Shown here: positions 12,401-57,270 of the stretch, one piece after another
Layout of the letters: each line of letters starts with the position of its first letter
Numbering within the stretch: the first letter of the stretch is position 1
IMG/VR virus record: IMGVR_UViG_3300044843_000700
Location: 64,001 to 122,232 of that record
From: a virus
Lineage: Duplodnaviria; Heunggongvirae; Uroviricota; Caudoviricetes
Length of the DNA stretch: 58,232 nt
Strand: one strand, 5' to 3'
Position numbers and translations under genes: made by a program
Notes under the pieces: model-generated
What the model was told of the DNA's origin: nothing
Seen by the model: the letters and a program-made list of their open reading frames with translations, nothing else
Database searches by the model: none

Positions 12401-14365
12401 GCTAGTCGTGTAGCTCAGGTTTACGAAGAAGCAAAGAAGCAGCATAAGAGCAAGATCGAGAATTCTTATAAGCGTTTCCTACGCATGCGTAAGATGAACG
12501 ATCTCTTCAATCAATTATACAACATAGGAGTTTTCCTTGACGAAAAAGGCATGCAGGATATTCTTGAGAACAAGATGCCTGATACTTTCTTTGACATAGC
12601 TACCAAGCAAGTTATATTCGAGACGGATCCGAAGTGGCAGCAGATAAAAGATCTTTTCGCCAGCTTCAACGCTACTACGACAGAACCAATCAAAGAGGTT
12701 AGCGTTGAAGAGAAGACTGAGCAAACTCAGGAAAAGAAAGAAGCTGCACCTACAAGTATACTTACGCTTTCCTCTTCAGTAGATCAGTTTCGAGAAGCCG
12801 GTGTTCTTGATCCTATTATCAAAGCTTACCGAGAATTTGTAGCTCTTCAGAACTCTGCTACAGCAGAAGGGTGGATTGATAAATTCGCCTTAGAGAAAAG
12901 CGATGATCAAATCGCTTACTCAGATGCTTTCAAACAGTATCTGCAAATGAGTCCTGGTGCCGTAAACAGCATCTTGCGAGAGTATAATCAACAGGTACAA
13001 CCTAAAACACCTGGTATTGATTTGGGTACAGCTGCTTCTGAACAACTCGTAGCCAAAGGACAACGCCTTGGATTTACCAAAGAGCAGCTTAATGCTATGA
13101 CTCCTGAGGAAAGAGATCTTGTTCGTCAAGCTAATGCTAAGGAAGACGTACAAGGGCTTCTTGATAAGTATGCACAGAGAGCTCCTGCTCTTTCTATTGA
13201 AGATGCTAAAGCTGATATAGAAAGAAGAAGACAAGAAGAGTTAGGGGTAATAGAGAAAAGAACTTATACAGAAGATGATGGAACTACTTTTGAAGTCCAA
13301 ATACATACTACTGGAGATAAAAAAATAGTTAAAGTTACTAACCTTGATACCAAAGGTTCTTATACTACTGAATATAGTAAAGATTTAAGTAATGATAAGA
13401 TATATGAGGTGAGTAATCCCAATGGGTTTGAGTACTCCGATGTACAAGAAGTACAAAGTAGAGGGGGTAAAAAAACTGATGCTATCAATGCTAAATATGA
13501 TGCAGAATATGTAGATGCTGTTAAAAAGGGCACAATGACTAAAGAGCAGGCTATGAAAGCTCTTGAAGAAGTTGGTAGAAAAGATAGCAGTGCTTATGCA
13601 GAACTAGCTGCTTTAGAAGGACCTAAACCTGCTGAAGGAAGAGAACCTTCTACTCGAGAACAGCACAAGATCATTGTTGATGACCTAGGTTATACTTGGC
13701 CGGAAGCAAGAGCTATGTCTGCTTCGGAAGCTCAAGCTTTGATCAATGAAGGTCTGACCAAAACTCAACGTATCGAGTTAGATCGTGACCTGGCAGAAGA
13801 AGCTGAAAGAATGGCTGAGGCTGAGAAAGAATTCCTCATGGAGTACATGGAGGAACGCATCGCTAATGCGAAGTATATCGAAGAGCTCGAGACTATTGAG
13901 AACGAGCTAATGGAAGCGCTCATCGTAGATCCTATGCGAATCGATAACGATAGGATGAATACTGCTATCGAAGCTCGTAAACAACAGCTGGCTCGTGATA
14001 TAAACTTTGAGGATATACGTGAGAACGAGGTTGTTATCATGAAGGACAATCGCAAAATGATTGTTGTAGAAAAGGATGGTAATAAGCTCAAACTTCGTAA
14101 ATTTGGCGAGACGGCTGGAGCTGTGGAAATAGTTTACCAGAATGAGGTCAAGGACAAGATCCTGTACAAAGATCAACCATTTATGAGAACAGTAGATATC
14201 AATCCGCCTGTGACTCCGGAGGCTCAAGAGACTTCCAATGAAAACGTGAGATCGGCTCAAAACTTAAACACTACCGAGGCTATCGAGGAAGATCGTAATG
14301 CGGCCAAGGTGATGACACAACAAGAAGTAGATGACGAATTCAATAACTCAATAGGCTGCGAATAA
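9449..14365 (+). CDS. Giant ejection protein 1 (membrane-channel-like, vRNAP-associated)
   Basis: 1638 aa; G/A-rich hydrophobic segments (YTFGILAEFAAEEIVGWVGATLLAP; FASGFFMGG), EGLQEMYQ motif and long coiled coils; first of three giant genes, as in crAss-like phages. Confidence 0.65.
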   Translation: MAEELPNPNDIAPETTLNAGVINPLSLRPIELDLPEPPKSYPPMVIPSTMIPTQKAAPNQSLQGAQALLNMSSNAGSWAKNPFHYNKEKSYNADYDGANFKRYAEVPRLMREYGFTPYRDNEKLYNEHATNWEYFKRSAGQSWELMKTGFSEMLPWNAWDGEEVDIEAAREMERAHAIGHDSRNGFGAWVNNMTVDSGYTFGILAEFAAEEIVGWVGATLLAPESGGASWAAMAAETGNAVNKMRKLWSLGDKVKDMYKGVSRTYDWIRSADKMRDMYNLGKSGVSWTAKQLTPEMMKWGSDMVKGGFSMKGGEMMIDMAKASKGFGAFYRDARAYAAIVSEAKLEGGSTELQVRDKLIDEYVASHNGEMPNADELTRIYRVASEAGQSTFWWNVPALYISNKIVFDKALKGFKPMSAFREELEVGLKGKLAYNEAWKQAGTKAWEVVDDGFRSTLKSLTKASTYAPKNLLKNGIGTFVNYSKANLTEGLQEMYQDAVQNTMLDYYSDRYYHPSIEGSRSVLGSFVQNAGETLTSKQGWETFASGFFMGGMVQMPQKLAFEWAPKAWWKIKDPEGYTKYMSDLEEHTNSVVNALNAATMDDKFWDSITENTAQQLNNKIQAEKANAAGDKKAYYDIIDEDVFNHMHTLLKSGKISLIKDHLKDLKQLDKKSLQEAFGPVDESEGDAMEVYQKRLDSMMRRADSVEKHYQAVEKRFPNPFDPSRYNSKKNPEAYSNELKAYQAFEQAKKAAMYSNYAFERSVERMKSVMDDLNRNKPVGEAAASDFTTILNKQNLDAEVSILENEIRTFRQGDSESKSKADKLQKKLDHLKDYQDAVEQYQEALRVASKDKSKISDQEVETAKKAAKITKGTRVKNKKGKEAVVAKVRKGIAYDRDGNRIGSLKTLQAVSGERESEMLDAATEDLYEKYHAYLKFIASDKGTFAPNEDIMSSFQKVKDYYSLNQDALDMSDAVDTLHNPAKLAEYASRVAQVYEEAKKQHKSKIENSYKRFLRMRKMNDLFNQLYNIGVFLDEKGMQDILENKMPDTFFDIATKQVIFETDPKWQQIKDLFASFNATTTEPIKEVSVEEKTEQTQEKKEAAPTSILTLSSSVDQFREAGVLDPIIKAYREFVALQNSATAEGWIDKFALEKSDDQIAYSDAFKQYLQMSPGAVNSILREYNQQVQPKTPGIDLGTAASEQLVAKGQRLGFTKEQLNAMTPEERDLVRQANAKEDVQGLLDKYAQRAPALSIEDAKADIERRRQEELGVIEKRTYTEDDGTTFEVQIHTTGDKKIVKVTNLDTKGSYTTEYSKDLSNDKIYEVSNPNGFEYSDVQEVQSRGGKKTDAINAKYDAEYVDAVKKGTMTKEQAMKALEEVGRKDSSAYAELAALEGPKPAEGREPSTREQHKIIVDDLGYTWPEARAMSASEAQALINEGLTKTQRIELDRDLAEEAERMAEAEKEFLMEYMEERIANAKYIEELETIENELMEALIVDPMRIDNDRMNTAIEARKQQLARDINFEDIRENEVVIMKDNRKMIVVEKDGNKLKLRKFGETAGAVEIVYQNEVKDKILYKDQPFMRTVDINPPVTPEAQETSNENVRSAQNLNTTEAIEEDRNAAKVMTQQEVDDEFNNSIGCE

Positions 14366-14366
14366 C

Positions 14367-17300
14367 ATGATCTGTGCATTATCGGAGAATCAACAAAGAG
14401 CTCTGCGCAAGAAGGTATATAAAGACCTGGTAGCAACTCTTCAGACGGATACCCCTTTCACTGTGAAGGGGTATGTCAATTCTGTATATAGCCAAGTACT
14501 GGAAAAGAGTGACAATCCAGAGTTGGCCTTAGCTTATGCAGCCTTGGTGCCTCGTTATATCGACCAACTTAAATCCGTTGATGATGATATTCGTAGAGGA
14601 CTGCGTTCTAAAGGTGTTAACTCTGACGTAGATATCACAGATAATATCGACAAGTTTGAAGATCCTGATACCGGTTTAAATAATGTTCGCGAATACCTAG
14701 GGTTGTCAGAGGATATCGCTCAGGAAGTTCGCGAGTTGAACCAGTCTGTTCAACAAGAAACAGAGCAACAGGAAGAAAAAAAAGAGGAGCGTATTACTCC
14801 AGAAGAGCAAGAAGTAATTCCTCCACCTGCACCAAACTTCAGCTACCAGCGTTCTGAAAAAGAATTCTCAGCGGTTAAGCCTACTGTTATGGCTGACCAA
14901 GATCAGGAAGCTTTAGAATGGAGAAACAAAAAGAGCCCTGATTACAATAAAGTGAATCCTGCGGTAGCTTTCTACTTCAAGATTAAGCGTGTGATATTAT
15001 CCAAGCTTTTTGCACCTGGAGCTAATCAGAGCAGTGAAAACATTTCTGTAAATGCGTTAGTGGGTCAAGGTGTATACCTGACTTTGATGCCGGTTAGCAA
15101 ACTGGACCGAGACAAGATTCGTCCTAAAGATCTTGAGCCTGTAGAAGCTGGTCAACCTTCGAACTGGGATTCTAACGAACCGGTTCTTGTGCTTACAGAT
15201 CGATATGGTTCAACCATATTGTTTAACGACAATGGAGAGTTTGACATTAATGGTAAGCCCGCATATTACTACTTCCGTAAAATCTATCCGAGCCAAGTTC
15301 GTGATGGTAAGGTTGACTTATGGAAGTCATCCAATCCTAACACTTCAGATGATTATGATCGCGCAGACTCATTAGCTCGTCAGAAAGGTATAAGCAAAGA
15401 AGAAGCTATTGATCAAATACGTAAAGAGCTTCAGACAGCATATGATCTTCGTCAGGCTTTAAAGAATAACCCTGATATGAGGATCCGTTCTGAGATTACG
15501 GGTGGAACCTTCGGATATCCGGCTATGGATTACAACATTGATACTCCAATATCGAGCATCAATTTTGGTAACTACCCTGTGTCATTTGATGTAGCTCCTA
15601 TGACAGATCCTACTACTGGAGCTATAAAAGGACGCACATATTTTCAGACAGCTGAGACCGGTTCTCGTCTTATTGAGGTAGAACGTCCAGCTTTGAATGC
15701 TATCAACGGTATGGTGGATCGTGTGGCAGATTTGATGTTTAAGAACATCTTGGTGCCAATTGGAAACACTATGTCTCCTATAACAAGTCAGCAGCGTCAT
15801 GACTTTATCCAACAGTATTTTATGACTCGAGGAGAAGGTCTAGATTTTATTACTGAAGAAGATGGCTCTTACAAGGTGAAGATTAAGGGTGATGTTATCT
15901 ACAAGTCTTTACCGACAAGAAAGAAAGAGGCAGATGGTACATGGACTGATATTGGTCAGTATTCTCCGGAAGTTGTTTCTGCTAAAAAAGCAGAAGCAGA
16001 TATGGCTTCAGCACAGGTAAAAAATTACCTGAGCACCTTATCACCTCAGACAAAGATTGAACGTCCTACTGATGCAGAAAAAGCTCGATCTACGAGTAAC
16101 CCTGCTGAATTTCGCGTAGGATCTATTTATAAAGCCGCTGACGGCTCTTATTGGCGAGTAGGTTATCCTAAAGCCAATATAGCTTCTGCTTACGTTAAAA
16201 CGGATTTCAAAGATGTTACGATTGAGGATCGTGATGGTAAGTCTGTTCTTAATACTACAATTCGTCCTTACGCGGACTACATCAAAGAGAACTTCGTAAT
16301 ACACTATCCAGTAAACTCTGAGGGAAGACTTACTAACCTCAATGCTTATTTCACCTTTGAGCCTTTGCAAGAGGATCTAGAAAAGGTATACAAGAAAGAA
16401 GAGCCTGCTATTAATACTCCAGTAGAATCTCCTTCTATAGAGCAATCTGACATTGCCAGCAACAACGTTAAAACAGGTCTGGATGCAGCTTTTGATGATC
16501 CTTCTCTGAATAAAGAGTTAGATCAGAAGAATGCTGATAAGAAGGCTACCCAGGAACAAATTGCTGCAGCTAAGACTTGGTATGAAAATCATCCTTTGAG
16601 CAAGCACTTTCCGTTCGAAGCTATGTTCAATGCTGTCAACAGTAAAAATCCTAGAGCTGTTGCTAATTGGACTATCCAGGGTATCACTCTTTATAAAGGC
16701 TCGGATTACTCAGATCTTTACCACGAAGCATGGCACGGATTCACTCAAGCTTTCCTTACAAAAGAGCAGAAGAAATCTTTGTATAACGAGGTAAGAAAAA
16801 AGAGCGGAAGCTTCACAGACTACAAAGGCCGTCGAGTATCTTTCAAATATGCTAGTGATAAACAAGTTGAGGAATATCTTGCTGAAGATTTTCGTCAGTG
16901 GATGTTGTCAGGAGCTAAGTCTGAAATTAAAGATCCGGTTAAGCGTAATATCTTCCAGAAGATCTTGGATTTCTTGAGAGCTCTTTTTGGAGATCTTACT
17001 CCTAGCCAATTGAATGGTGATGCTCAAGCTATGCGTACAGTGCATACTCTTTATGAGAAAATGCGCGTAGGTAACCTTAACGAGTATTCATTCTCACAAG
17101 ACAATGTAACCTTTACTATTCTTGACAAAGGAGCTGTAGCTTTCAAAGAAGATGCCTCTATACAAAGCTTGAGTTACGAAGACTCTCGCTTCCTTGTAGA
17201 AGCTATGGACTCTTTCATGTCAAAGTTTGTGGATGATTTTAGCAAGGGTAAACGTAATCAGTTATTAGCTCAGGCTCCGGATTCCCAGCTTTCCTATAAG

Positions 17301-56307: not shown

Positions 56308-56604
56308 TTAATTCAAGATACACCAGTCTTCAGCAAGCATATCTGTCTGAGAGGCTAACCACCCAGTAAGAATCTTTTTATCCGCAGTAAACATTCGGAT
56401 GCTTCCGAGTGCTTCAAATGAATCACCACCGATTTCTTTCTCGATTACTTCCCGTAAAGCGGGGTCATGAATGGCCTTAGTAGGAACCGTTCCGGCTGGT
56501 AATAAGAAAAGGAACATGTTCTTTCCATTCCATCCTGTACGTGCTACACGTTTTCCTTGTTTGAGAGCTTCTATAGCATCTCCGAACTTCAAGTTCTCTT
56601 GCAT
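56308..56604 (-). CDS. DUF2829 / Tad2-like anti-defence sponge protein (probable start MQENL at 56604)
   Basis: FGDAIEALKQG..V.R.GWNGKNMFLFL...TAD.KI...W.ASQTD.LAEDW signature of the DUF2829/Tad2 family. Confidence 0.85.
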   Translation of the reverse strand: MQENLKFGDAIEALKQGKRVARTGWNGKNMFLFLLPAGTVPTKAIHDPALREVIEKEIGGDSFEALGSIRMFTADKKILTGWLASQTDMLAEDWCILN

Positions 56605-56624: not shown

Positions 56625-56740
56625 GGAGGACGGTAGGATTCGAACCTACGACACACGGCACCAAAAGCAGTTAAGTTGCTGAGGTAACCTTTAAAACAGG
56701 CTACACATATACGTTGCTCTACCACTGAGCTACGTCCTCC
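56625..56740 (-). tRNA. Atypical tRNA (UUG anticodon, Gln-reading; His-like G-1:C73) with a 43-nt insertion in the anticodon stem
   Basis: G-GAGGACG/CGTCCTC-C acceptor, GCTC-AGTGGTA-GAGC D-arm, GTAGG-TTCGAAT-CCTAC T-arm; deleting 56669-56711 gives ACGGC-TTTTGGT-GCCGT and a 73-nt tRNA. Confidence 0.75.
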
Positions 56741-56750
56741 ATTTATGTTA

Positions 56751-56822
56751 GACCCTGACCCGGATTCGAACCGGTAAGTCCATGTTTTATAAAGCTTGCA
56801 TGCAGAGGCTTCAACACAGGGT
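56751..56822 (-). tRNA. Degenerate tRNA-like element (pseudo-tRNA)
   Basis: ACCCTG/CAGGGT acceptor, CCGG-TTCGAAT-CCGG T-arm, weak D-arm, anticodon stem interrupted by CAAGC. Confidence 0.45.
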
Positions 56823-56892
56823 TTATTCCACACCGCTTTTCCATTCCGAGAGTGGTGAGCTCTCAACCGGTCCGTATATCGCCGGGGCATCT

Positions 56893-57270
56893 TTAGTCTT
56901 TTAGTTCTGTCCAGAATTGCTTGACCTGATTGTCTGTCATTTCTCCTTTGAGAAAGGCCATACACATGTCATAAAGAGTTTTCCATCTCCATTCTTTGGG
57001 CATAGGTTGTAGCGCATTCCAATGATTACTTGAGAATCTCCATCCTGCGCTTCCCATACGAAAAGTTACACACCAGATTTTAGCATCTCGACTATCGTAT
57101 ACACTGTCAATGTACTTTATATTCAGACCATGTGCACCAAACTTGCCCATGTTGTGGTAGATTTTGTTTCGGTCTTTTACCTGTTCATCCGACATCCATA
57201 GTGCAAACTTGTGATATTTTTGAGCAAAGTTCACAACCTCAGCAAACTGTTCAATAGTCATCGCTTCCAT
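56893..57270 (-). CDS. Hypothetical protein
   Basis: 125-aa ORF. Confidence 0.65.
   Translation of the reverse strand: MEAMTIEQFAEVVNFAQKYHKFALWMSDEQVKDRNKIYHNMGKFGAHGLNIKYIDSVYDSRDAKIWCVTFRMGSAGWRFSSNHWNALQPMPKEWRWKTLYDMCMAFLKGEMTDNQVKQFWTELKD

What the first reader, a model, noticed from the sequence alone, without database searches (positions are those of the whole stretch)
56625..56740. Chimeric tRNA: His-type G-1:C73 body, Gln UUG anticodon, and a 43-nt insert carrying a Lys-like anticodon hairpin
Seen: removing 56669-56711 restores a perfect ACGGC/GCCGT stem with loop TTTTGGT (anticodon TTG) in a 73-nt cloverleaf. The acceptor has the extra G-1:C73 pair that defines tRNA-His. The insert folds into GTAGCCT-GTTTTAA-AGGTTAC, whose 7-nt loop mimics a tRNA-Lys(UUU) loop, and it repeats AGCAAC from the D-arm junction. 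No BHB or group I signature was evident. Inference: a novel small intron, a mistranslating tRNA, or a decoy for anticodon nucleases (PrrC and PARIS target tRNA-Lys UUU).
Basis: partly seen in the sequence, partly recalled or inferred. Interest (0 to 1): 0.76.

Follow-up and report, generated by a model that had tools for sequence, protein, structure and literature searches.

The report
tRNA-shaped phage RNA with docking module
The odd "chimeric tRNA" is a real, intact tRNA-shaped gene of a 122-kb phage whose anticodon stem carries a hairpin-plus-CAGCAA insert; the same design occurs in other phages that encode a Ro60-like RNA-binding protein, so it is most likely a tRNA-mimicking partner RNA (Y-RNA-like) rather than a His/Gln/Lys chimera, though splicing as a small intron is not excluded.

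Summary
On the minus strand, 56740-56625, lies a tRNA-shaped gene (Rfam tRNA 50.2 bits) with perfect acceptor, D and T arms and 54 nt where the anticodon arm should be. Removing 56711-56669 gives a clean tRNA-Gln(UUG).

The "chimera" reading does not hold. G-1:C73 is kept only in a near-identical relative. The "Lys-like" loop is a lineage-specific enlargement of a GUCAA/GNNA loop. The repeated AGCAAC is a conserved box.

The insert follows a design shared with KVP40 "tRNA-Pseudo-3/4/5", Synechococcus phage B3 "tRNA-Pseudo" and several metagenomic phages: P1 ACG/CGU, a 5-7-bp hairpin, a CNGCAA box, then a small hairpin that often mimics an anticodon loop. Every carrier found encodes a DUF2828/DUF7788 protein, present in 1.4% of phage records. 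Its model here matches Ro60 over its full length.

Best reading (about 0.5): a Y-RNA-like tRNA mimic that docks the phage Ro60-like protein.

Caveats:
- My covariance model scores this insert only 7-9 bits.
- The protein gene is 14 kb away.
- The closest relative has lost both insert and loop.
- No RNA data could be obtained.
- A protein-dependent mini-intron remains possible (about 0.2).

This scan has noted the same RNA class on other DNA before.

The parts
56625..56740 (-). Whole tRNA-shaped gene (G-1 at 56740, position 73 = C at 56625; no encoded CCA)
   Evidence: Rfam RF00005 50.2 bits; sequence
56733..56739 (-). Acceptor 5' strand GAGGACG; pairs perfectly with 56632-56626 CGUCCUC
56716..56730 (-). 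D arm GCUC-AGUGGUA-GAGC
56712..56714 (-). P1 5' strand ACG (nt 27-29); pairs with CGU at 56657-56655. ACG followed by UA is conserved at this junction in most family members
56669..56711 (-).
56684..56704 (-). P2 hairpin GUAGCCU / GUUUUAA / AGGUUAC. The stem covaries with L093 (GCAGCCU/AGGUUGC). The loop is an enlarged GUCAA
56671..56681 (-). Box CAGCAACUUAA (core CNGCAA), 2 nt after the hairpin. CAGCAACUUA also occurs in a leader element of phage L093
56655..56668 (-). P3: GC-UUUUGGU-GC, then CGU. This is the anticodon-like hairpin; UUG at 56664-56662, U33 and G37 as in the phage's own tRNA-Gln
56633..56649 (-). T arm GUAGG-UUCGAAU-CCUAC

Best explanation
The gene makes a roughly 116-nt tRNA-shaped non-coding RNA that is NOT meant to decode.

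It keeps a complete tRNA top half (acceptor, D arm, T arm). This should let host RNase P, RNase Z, the CCA enzyme and modification enzymes process and stabilise it. The anticodon arm is rebuilt into a three-way junction:
- P1 (ACG/CGU);
- a 7-bp hairpin P2;
- a single-stranded box, CAGCAA;
- a short hairpin P3 that displays a tRNA-Gln-like anticodon loop.

The hairpin-plus-box is proposed to be the docking site for the phage's own Ro60-like protein (DUF2828+DUF7788, genome 12685-14082, minus strand). That would make the RNA a tRNA-embedded analogue of Y RNAs.

What is shown: the architecture, its recurrence, covariation in P2, the Ro60 fold of the protein, and the co-occurrence of RNA and protein.

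What is inferred: that the protein binds the box; that the RNA stays unspliced; and that the particle acts on tRNA-related targets (tRNA damage or anti-defence), as its place beside a Tad2-like gene suggests.
For: 1. Intact tRNA body, 50.2 bits, with perfect stems.

2. Shared architecture. The order ACG-UA junction, 5-7-bp hairpin, CNGCAA box within 0-3 nt, then a small hairpin before CGU is found in:
- three tandem genes of L030;
- KVP40 tRNA-Pseudo-3/4/5 and two more KVP40 genes;
- L093 and L102;
- Synechococcus phage B3 'tRNA-Pseudo-GCA'.
The chance that a shuffle of our 54-nt core shows such a hairpin plus box is 3e-4 for >=7 bp and 4e-3 for >=5 bp.

3. P2 covaries in the family: 7 of 7 pairs have changes on both sides; 90.7% of cells are paired against 62% in shuffles, 0/500 shuffles reaching it. 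Between ours and L093, C:G becomes U:A at pair 2.

4. The own genome encodes a DUF2828+DUF7788 protein. Its model (pLDDT 88) has Ro60/TROVE structures as its top 13 PDB hits, including phage phiLo Ro60, with E from 3e-9 to 2e-5 over more than 500 columns.

5. Co-occurrence.
- The protein family is in only 711 of 50,697 phage records.
- Yet it is present in every phage found with the module: ours, L030, KVP40, L093, L102, B3.
- Among 37 records with any insert-bearing tRNA, only 4 have it, and 3 of these 4 are the records with this module.
- Always on the same strand; distances are about 0.1-0.2 kb (L030, L102), 0.4 kb (B3), 1-1.6 kb (L093), 10-11 kb (KVP40) and 14 kb (ours).
- All 7 covariance-model hits in 34 loci around the protein gene lie upstream of the gene and on its strand.

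6. Paralogues with equally good tRNA bodies, P2 and box have P3 loops of 4, 6 or 8 nt (KVP40 ps5, L030 gene 3, KVP40_b, ps4). The conserved function therefore cannot be decoding.

7. The genome already has a canonical tRNA-Gln(UUG).

8. Precedent: Ro60 partners that mimic tRNA (YrlA; PMC4201824), and Y-like RNAs encoded next to a phage Ro60 gene and shown to bind it (PMC12135203).
Against: - Covariance models of the module built without our sequence score it only 7.4 bits (R1) and 9.4 bits (R2; E 1.2 in 4.2 kb, although it is the top hit of that stretch). By that test membership is not significant.
- Our P2 loop has 7 nt, not the GNNA type.
- The Ro60-like gene is 14 kb away, not adjacent.
- The closest relative G038 keeps the protein (97% identical) but at this locus has only ACGG-UUG-CCGU: no module, no loop, and a C6.A67 mismatch. 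The module here is therefore dispensable, or that allele is dead.
- Four near-complete relatives carry the protein but give no tRNA hits at all, so the protein does not need a tRNA-shaped partner.
- The box differs from the known Ro-binding motifs (GNCGAA in YrlA, CGAA in phiLo Yrl).
- There is no expression or binding data.
Confidence: 0.5

Rival explanations
1. A new kind of small (43-nt) protein-dependent tRNA intron. The hairpin plus box marks the insert for excision by an unknown nuclease and ligase. This would release a tRNA-Gln(UUG), possibly charged by HisRS because of G-1:C73.
For: - Precise removal gives a textbook cloverleaf (ARAGORN score 122).
- The resulting loop UUUUGGU nearly equals the loop UUUUGGA of the phage's own tRNA-Gln.
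- About 8 of 14 family members give a canonical stem, U33 and a purine at 37 after one deletion (Gln, Asn, Lys, Arg, Thr), against about 1% in shuffles.
- The nucleotides after the insert covary with the 3' strand (ACG/CGU, UGC/GCA, AUC/GAU).
Against: - No mechanism is known. The insert is far too small for group I, there is no BHB, and there are no Rfam ribozyme hits.
- The phage has no RtcB, EndA or TROVE Pfam match.
- Paralogues with loops of 4, 6 or 8 nt would not yield tRNAs.
- Discriminator bases do not follow the anticodon (A73 for Asn, Arg and Lys alike; C73 for Gln).
- The tRNA would duplicate the canonical tRNA-Gln(UUG).
- No precisely insert-free allele was seen. G038 lacks the loop as well, and all 30 KVP40-like records keep the insert.
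Confidence: 0.2
2. A decaying tRNA gene: a relic disrupted by an insertion, in a hypervariable accessory region, with no function of its own.
For: - ARAGORN does not call it.
- It is redundant with a canonical tRNA-Gln.
- The allele in the closest relative is truncated and has an acceptor mismatch. Meanwhile the other tRNA-like gene of the two phages is 100% identical, so this spot turns over fast.
- The neighbouring genes differ between the two phages.
Against: - All four tRNA stems and the 7-bp insert hairpin are perfect.
- The architecture matches genes in unrelated phages (p about 3e-4).
- The hairpin covaries.
- Co-occurrence with a rare protein family.
Confidence: 0.15
3. A stand-alone decoy or sponge for a host enzyme that recognises the tRNA-Gln anticodon arm (an anticodon nuclease or a modification enzyme), acting without the Ro60-like protein. 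Alternatively, merely an RNase P/Z processing signal in the transcript upstream of the Tad2-like gene.
For: - The P3 loop mimics a genuine Gln loop.
- Family loops are those of Lys, Asn, Gln, Arg and Thr. From my own knowledge, these are typical targets of anticodon nucleases.
- The gene sits 20 nt upstream of a Tad2-like anti-Thoeris gene (Pfam PF11195, E 9e-23).
Against: - It does not explain the conserved hairpin plus box, nor its tie to the Ro60-like gene.
- The Lys-like insert loop that prompted the idea is not conserved.
- No anticodon nuclease is known for this unknown host.
Confidence: 0.1

Closest known systems
'tRNA-Pseudo-3/4/5' of Vibrio phage KVP40 (NC_005083) and 'tRNA-Pseudo-GCA' b3_0347 of Synechococcus phage B3 (MN695334)
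   Same: A full tRNA body. ACG...CGU at the base of the anticodon arm. An internal hairpin followed by CNGCAA. A small 3' hairpin, often with a legitimate anticodon loop. The phage also encodes a DUF2828-type Ro60-like protein on the same strand.
   Different: Those hairpins end in a GNNA tetraloop or a triloop, whereas ours has a 7-nt loop GUUUUAA. The KVP40 genes encode CCA; ours does not. Their records annotate them only as pseudogenes, with no function assigned. The module models score ours below significance.
YrlA-type bacterial and phage Y RNAs with Ro60/Rsr (Rfam RF02553; Chen et al. 2014, PMC4201824)
   Same: A non-coding RNA that mimics tRNA (D and T arms, acceptor). It is encoded on the same strand as a Ro60-type protein, and the anticodon side carries the protein-binding part.
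   Different: YrlA is circularly permuted (T arm, closed acceptor, D arm) and carries GNCGAA. Ours is a normal, non-permuted tRNA with open acceptor ends, a CAGCAA box and an anticodon-like loop. The Rfam YrlA score here is 18.3 bits against a threshold of 69, and that match spans two neighbouring elements. The protein is DUF2828/DUF7788, not Pfam TROVE.
Thermus phage phiLo Ro60 with Yrl1/Yrl2 (PMC12135203; PDB 9KOP, 9L5Y)
   Same: A phage-encoded Ro60 with phage-encoded partner RNAs next to its gene. This protein is the best structural match of ours.
   Different: Yrl1/2 are stem-bulge-stem RNAs with a CGAA motif and are not tRNA-shaped. Binding was shown there; it has not been shown here.
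Engineered tRNA scaffold for recombinant RNA (Ponchon and Dardel; from my own knowledge)
   Same: Foreign RNA placed in the anticodon stem of an otherwise intact tRNA, so that the cell processes and stabilises it.
   Different: That scaffold is man-made. Here the arrangement is natural, conserved and tied to one protein family.
Group I introns in bacterial and phage tRNA genes (PMC3984707)
   Same: An intervening sequence in the anticodon arm of a tRNA gene in a phage.
   Different: Group I introns are about 200 nt or longer, sit in the anticodon loop and have a P3-P9 core. Ours is 43 nt, sits in the stem between nt 29 and 30, and gives no Rfam hit.

Membership tests
Canonical decoding tRNA (Rfam RF00005) | Acceptor, D and T arms with conserved loop residues | tested here: met
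   50.2 bits against a gathering score of 29, full model 1-71
Canonical decoding tRNA (Rfam RF00005) | Contiguous 5-bp anticodon stem with a 7-nt loop | tested here: not met
   54 nt lie between ACG and CGU. ARAGORN in default mode finds nothing
Group I intron-containing tRNA | Intron of about 200 nt or more with a catalytic core, located in the anticodon loop | tested here: not met
   43 nt, in the 5' strand of the stem. No Rfam intron or ribozyme match at E<=10
Archaeal/eukaryal-type (BHB) tRNA intron | Bulge-helix-bulge at both splice sites; splicing endonuclease and RtcB-type ligase | tested here: not met
   The start of the insert (UAUAUG) has no 4-nt complement in the start of exon 2 (GCUUUUGG), by hand. 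No PF01974 or PF01139 in the phage. Host enzymes could not be tested
tRNA-His | G-1:C73 together with a GUG anticodon; the feature conserved among homologues | tested here: not met
   G-1 and C73 are present, but the anticodon is UUG. The pair is kept only in G038. L030, L093 and B3 have A73
YrlA Y RNA (RF02553) | Score at or above the gathering threshold; permuted T-acceptor-D order; GNCGAA motif | tested here: not met
   18.3 bits against 69. The gene is not permuted, and I saw no GNCGAA when reading the gene
YrlA Y RNA (RF02553) | Encoded near, and on the same strand as, a Ro60 orthologue | tested here: inconclusive
   The Ro60-like protein is present and on the same strand, but 14 kb away. 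The YrlA criterion was within 4 kb (PMC4201824)
Module-bearing tRNA-shaped RNAs of phages with DUF2828-type Ro60-like protein (KVP40/B3 'pseudo-tRNAs') | Intact tRNA body; P1 ACG/CGU with a UA junction; 5-7-bp hairpin; CNGCAA within 0-3 nt; 3' hairpin | tested here: met
   All are present at 56714-56655. The R2 alignment pairs all 7 bp and aligns the box. Shuffle probability is 3e-4
Module-bearing tRNA-shaped RNAs of phages with DUF2828-type Ro60-like protein (KVP40/B3 'pseudo-tRNAs') | Significant score with a covariance model of the module built from other members | tested here: inconclusive
   R1 gives 7.4 bits and R2 9.4 bits (E 1.2 in 4.2 kb, top hit). B3 and L093, also left out of the R1 seed, score 22 bits
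Module-bearing tRNA-shaped RNAs of phages with DUF2828-type Ro60-like protein (KVP40/B3 'pseudo-tRNAs') | The genome encodes the DUF2828/DUF7788 Ro60-like protein | tested here: met
   Pfam E 3e-50 and 2e-35. Foldseek top hits are Ro60 structures
Module-bearing tRNA-shaped RNAs of phages with DUF2828-type Ro60-like protein (KVP40/B3 'pseudo-tRNAs') | The protein binds the RNA | not testable with these tools
   Needs EMSA or RIP. No RNA-protein predictor was available

The most novel reading that the evidence does not exclude
Phages have built a second, undescribed kind of Y RNA by grafting a Ro60-docking module (hairpin plus CNGCAA) into the anticodon stem of whole tRNAs, while keeping a genuine anticodon loop on display (Gln here; Lys, Asn, Arg and Thr elsewhere). 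The RNA would bring the phage Ro60-like protein to enzymes or lesions that recognise those particular tRNAs. One example is as a decoy or repair platform against anticodon-nuclease defences, which would fit its place beside a Tad2-like anti-defence gene.
Probability: 0.25. Interest if true: 0.8.

Novelty: new variant of a known kind. Interest (0 to 1): 0.6.

Why it matters
Ro60 with Y RNAs is a conserved but poorly understood RNA-surveillance system. In bacteria it is linked to tRNA mimicry and to the tRNA-repair operon. If this reading is right, a distinct and widespread phage branch (the DUF2828 protein is in 1.4% of sequenced phages) uses ordinary tRNAs as the chassis for its partner RNAs. 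That would explain dozens of genes now annotated as 'pseudo-tRNA' or 'tRNA-OTHER'. It would give a defined RNA element (hairpin plus CNGCAA) to test for Ro60 binding. It would also suggest a link between phage Ro60 and the tRNA-targeting arms race. If the insert is instead spliced, it would be a new class of bacterial-virus tRNA intron. Either outcome can be tested with one Northern blot or tRNA-seq experiment on KVP40 or Synechococcus phage B3, both of which are in culture.

Tried and rejected
- The search for related loci with the upstream ORF 56893-57270 found nothing.
- The metagenome pattern scan returned only the unrelated 'GCAUA...GUUCCUA' insert type found in huge phages. That type, and the L028 type, occur in records without DUF7788, so not every insert-bearing phage tRNA belongs to this class.
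- A loose hairpin-plus-box scan of the own genome was too unspecific (37 hits against 18 in shuffles). No stand-alone modules could be claimed.
- Module covariance models R1 and R2 did not reach significance on our insert.
- Pfam TROVE, RtcB and tRNA-intron endonuclease are all absent from the phage.
- phmmer of the protein against PDB sequences gave nothing. Only the fold comparison showed Ro60.
- ARAGORN's intron mode calls the gene tRNA-Leu(taa) with a 35-nt intron. I rejected this: it needs a mismatched stem and a long variable arm.
- T4 RNA C and RNA D were compared as possible relatives. They do not show this architecture.
- The idea that ACGGC/GCCGU marks a special scaffold was rejected. 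Ordinary uninterrupted phage tRNAs of many identities share that stem.
- A 14-mer of the insert (AAGGTTACCTCAGC) recurs at genome position 16030 (+), inside an ORF. With p about 0.03 and no link to a start site, I treated it as chance.
- Mobile-element reading: the insert has no terminal inverted repeats or target duplication, and no other copy in the genome.

Full report
**What is there.** The window is the right-hand part (genome 64001-122232) of a 122,232-bp IMG/VR virus record that CheckV rates complete. The finding lies on the minus strand.

Rfam's tRNA model matches 56739-56625 end to end at 50.2 bits. It opens a 54-nt insertion between ACG and CGU of the anticodon stem. ARAGORN in default mode reports no tRNA in the window.

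Read 5' to 3', the gene is:
- G-1 (56740);
- acceptor GAGGACG;
- UA;
- D arm GCUC-AGUGGUA-GAGC;
- A;
- ACG;
- UAUAUGU;
- hairpin GUAGCCU-GUUUUAA-AGGUUAC;
- CU;
- CAGCAACUUAACU;
- GC-UUUUGGU-GC;
- CGU;
- GUGUC;
- T arm GUAGG-UUCGAAU-CCUAC;
- CGUCCUC;
- C73 (56625).

Deleting 56711-56669 in silico gives tRNA-Gln(UUG), ARAGORN score 122, drawn with an 8-bp acceptor. A single deletion restores a canonical arm in only 2% of shuffles of the central region.

**Genome context.** The phage has 23 ordinary tRNA genes at 26.3-28.9 kb. They include Gln(UUG), His(GUG) and Lys(UUU); none resembles this gene.

A second tRNA-shaped gene with a long insert lies at genome 2185-2353, minus strand.

In the closest relative, G038, the two record ends are contiguous. 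The order there is Ro60-like gene, about 12 kb, second tRNA-like gene, 3.7 kb, orthologue of our gene. Our record is therefore a permuted linearisation.

Our gene sits in a 290-nt non-coding stretch. Upstream is ORF 56893-57270. Downstream is a Tad2-like gene, 56308-56604 (Pfam PF11195, E 9e-23).

**The insert is a member of a recurring design.** Pattern scans of IMG/VR found dozens of phage tRNA bodies with 40-70 nt in place of the anticodon arm. They fall into several unrelated insert types.

Ours groups with the following:
- three tandem genes in L030;
- KVP40 'tRNA-Pseudo-3/4/5' and two further KVP40 genes;
- two genes in L093 and one in L102;
- 'tRNA-Pseudo-GCA' of Synechococcus phage B3. 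This was the only strong blastn hit of our gene in 50,697 phage records: 74% identity over 98 nt including the insert, E 1e-6.

All share the same order of parts:
- P1 = ACG/CGU, with the insert starting UA;
- a 5-7-bp hairpin (P2);
- a CNGCAA box 0-3 nt later;
- a linker;
- a small hairpin (P3) directly before CGU.

The L093 hairpin GCAGCCU-GUCAA-AGGUUGC differs from ours by a compensatory C:G to U:A change and a shorter loop. A leader element in L093 carries CAGCAACUUA, as ours does.

Across 20 distinct family sequences, all 7 P2 pairs show changes on both sides. 90.7% of cells are paired against 62% in shuffles, and 0 of 500 shuffles reach that value.

A shuffle of our 54-nt core shows a >=7-bp hairpin followed by the box in 0.03% of trials.

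The caveat is real. Covariance models of the module built without our sequence find B3 and L093 at about 22 bits. They give ours only 7.4 and 9.4 bits, mainly because of its 7-nt loop.

- G-1:C73 is kept only in G038, which is nearly identical. L030, L093 and B3 have A73 and no G-1.
- The 'Lys-like' loop GUUUUAA corresponds to GUCAA, GAUA, GUCA, GACA or GUU in homologues. It is not a conserved anticodon mimic.
- The second AGCAAC is the family box.

What is anticodon-like across the family is P3. After one deletion, about 8 of 14 members give a canonical stem with U33 and a purine at 37 (Gln, Asn several times, Lys, Arg, Thr). The nucleotides following the insert covary with the 3' strand. Our loop UUUUGGU nearly equals the loop UUUUGGA of the phage's own tRNA-Gln.

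**The protein partner.** Earlier notes of this scan suggested a Ro60-like protein as partner, and I tested this.

- Pfam TROVE is absent from the phage.
- Genome 12685-14082 (minus strand) encodes a 465-aa DUF2828+DUF7788 protein with a DxSxS MIDAS motif.
- Its AlphaFold model (pLDDT 88, pTM 0.89) has Ro60/TROVE structures as its 13 best PDB matches. These cover the full length and include Ro60 of Thermus phage phiLo, Xenopus and human Ro60, and Deinococcus Rsr (E from 3e-9 to 2e-5).
- The family occurs in 711 of 50,697 phage records (1.4%), and some records annotate it as 'Ro-like RNA binding protein'.
- It is present in every phage where I found the module: L030, KVP40, L093, L102, B3 (40% identical) and ours.
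- Among 37 records with any insert-bearing tRNA, only four have it, and three of those four are the records carrying this module.
- RNA and protein genes are always on the same strand. The distance is about 0.1-0.2 kb in L030 and L102, 0.4 kb in B3, 1-1.6 kb in L093, about 10 kb in KVP40 and 14 kb here.
- All seven module hits in 34 loci around the protein gene are upstream of the gene and co-oriented with it.

**Intron or stable RNA?** I could not get RNA data.

In favour of an intron:
- the clean restoration of a tRNA;
- the legitimate anticodon loops.

Against an intron:
- the insert is too small for group I, lacks a BHB and gives no ribozyme hit;
- the phage encodes no RtcB or EndA;
- tandem paralogues with equally good bodies, P2 and box have P3 loops of 4, 6 or 8 nt;
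- discriminator bases do not track the anticodon;
- the tRNA would be redundant;
- no precisely insert-free allele exists. G038 has ACGG-UUG-CCGU, lacking both insert and loop, and all 30 KVP40-like records keep the insert.

The ACGGC/GCCGU stem is not diagnostic. Ordinary phage tRNAs of many identities share it.

**Verdict.** The most likely reading (0.5) is a tRNA-embedded, Y-RNA-like partner of the phage Ro60-like protein. The analogies are YrlA (PMC4201824) and phiLo Yrl1/2 (PMC12135203). It differs from both in three ways: it is a non-permuted tRNA, it carries a different box, and it displays an anticodon-like loop.

Points against, or limiting, this reading:
- the weak model score;
- the 14-kb distance to the protein gene;
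- loss of the module in the closest relative, at a locus that turns over fast. The second tRNA-like gene is 100% identical between the two phages, whereas this one is not;
- relatives that carry the protein but no tRNA-shaped genes at all.

Rival readings are a protein-dependent mini-intron (0.2), a decaying relic (0.15), and a protein-independent decoy or processing signal (0.1).

I found no paper describing this RNA class. Database records call its members pseudo-tRNAs. This scan has already flagged the same class on other DNA, so this is one more, somewhat atypical, member.

Noticed in passing
window 56751-56822 (-): A degenerate tRNA-like element just upstream of the gene: acceptor-like ACCCUG/CAGGGU, a T-arm-like CCGG-UUCGAAU-CCGG, and a hairpin whose 12-nt loop CUCUGCAUGCAA is conserved. 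Its stem is fully replaced between our phage (GAAGC/GCUUU, 56812-56791) and relative G038 (ACGGU/ACCGU). It gives no tRNA hit in Rfam. The loop contains a CUGCA box.
   Followed up: partly
window 56830-56900 (-): A further conserved non-coding stretch upstream. Hairpin GAGAG-CUCACCA-CUCUC (56864-56848) covaries with GGAGA-CUCACCA-UCUCC in G038. Together with the two tRNA-like elements this forms a roughly 290-nt RNA-rich spacer.
   Followed up: no
genome 2185-2353 (-), outside the window (L070/L021): A second tRNA-shaped gene. It has a leucine-type class II D arm (GCGGAAUUGGCAGACGC) and about 87 extra nt in the anticodon region. It lies directly downstream of a helicase-like ORF and is 100% identical in relative G038. 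A similar Leu-type top half with a different insert is at L072 13421-13526.
   Followed up: partly
window 56308-56604 (-): A Tad2-like (DUF2829, anti-Thoeris) gene starts about 20 nt downstream of the tRNA-shaped gene. In relative G038 it is replaced by a small lipoprotein-like ORF, with only the last roughly 35 nt of the Tad2-like gene left. An extra ORF is inserted upstream. This looks like an accessory-gene hotspot.
   Followed up: partly
L114 2340-2480 and 2605-2660 (Synechococcus phage B3); L093 8284-8383; L091 and L094: Stand-alone 'leader' elements next to the Ro60-like gene: a helix whose 5' strand is directly followed by (A/U)CAGCAAC or UCAGCCA. They are repeated before and after the tRNA-shaped gene. 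The box therefore also exists outside tRNA bodies.
   Followed up: partly
L024, L029, L032, L043, L054, L055, L064-L068 (huge phages, 230-415 kb): A different conserved insert in tRNA bodies, at the same ACG|..|CC site, with the motif GCAUA-N4-GUUCCUA. It restores Gly(UCC) or Glu(CUC) loops. These records lack DUF7788.
   Followed up: no
L028/L042/L045 (provirus-class records): A tRNA-shaped gene with a 40-nt insert flanked by a direct repeat UUUCAU. It contains GUGUUUAAAGGUUAG, which matches 12-13 nt of our hairpin region (UGUUUUAAAGGUUA). There is no DUF7788 in those records. This may be chance.
   Followed up: no
genome 16030-16043 (+), outside the window: An exact 14-mer of the insert (AAGGTTACCTCAGC) lies inside ORF 15855-16379 (-), so the insert could pair with that mRNA. 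Expected by chance at p about 0.03, and not near a start codon.
   Followed up: partly
window 1398-32837 (+): A run of very large ORFs (821, 820, 1019, 1638, 3488 and 2665 aa; a 1694-aa ORF starting upstream of the window ends at 1398). They were not examined.
   Followed up: no
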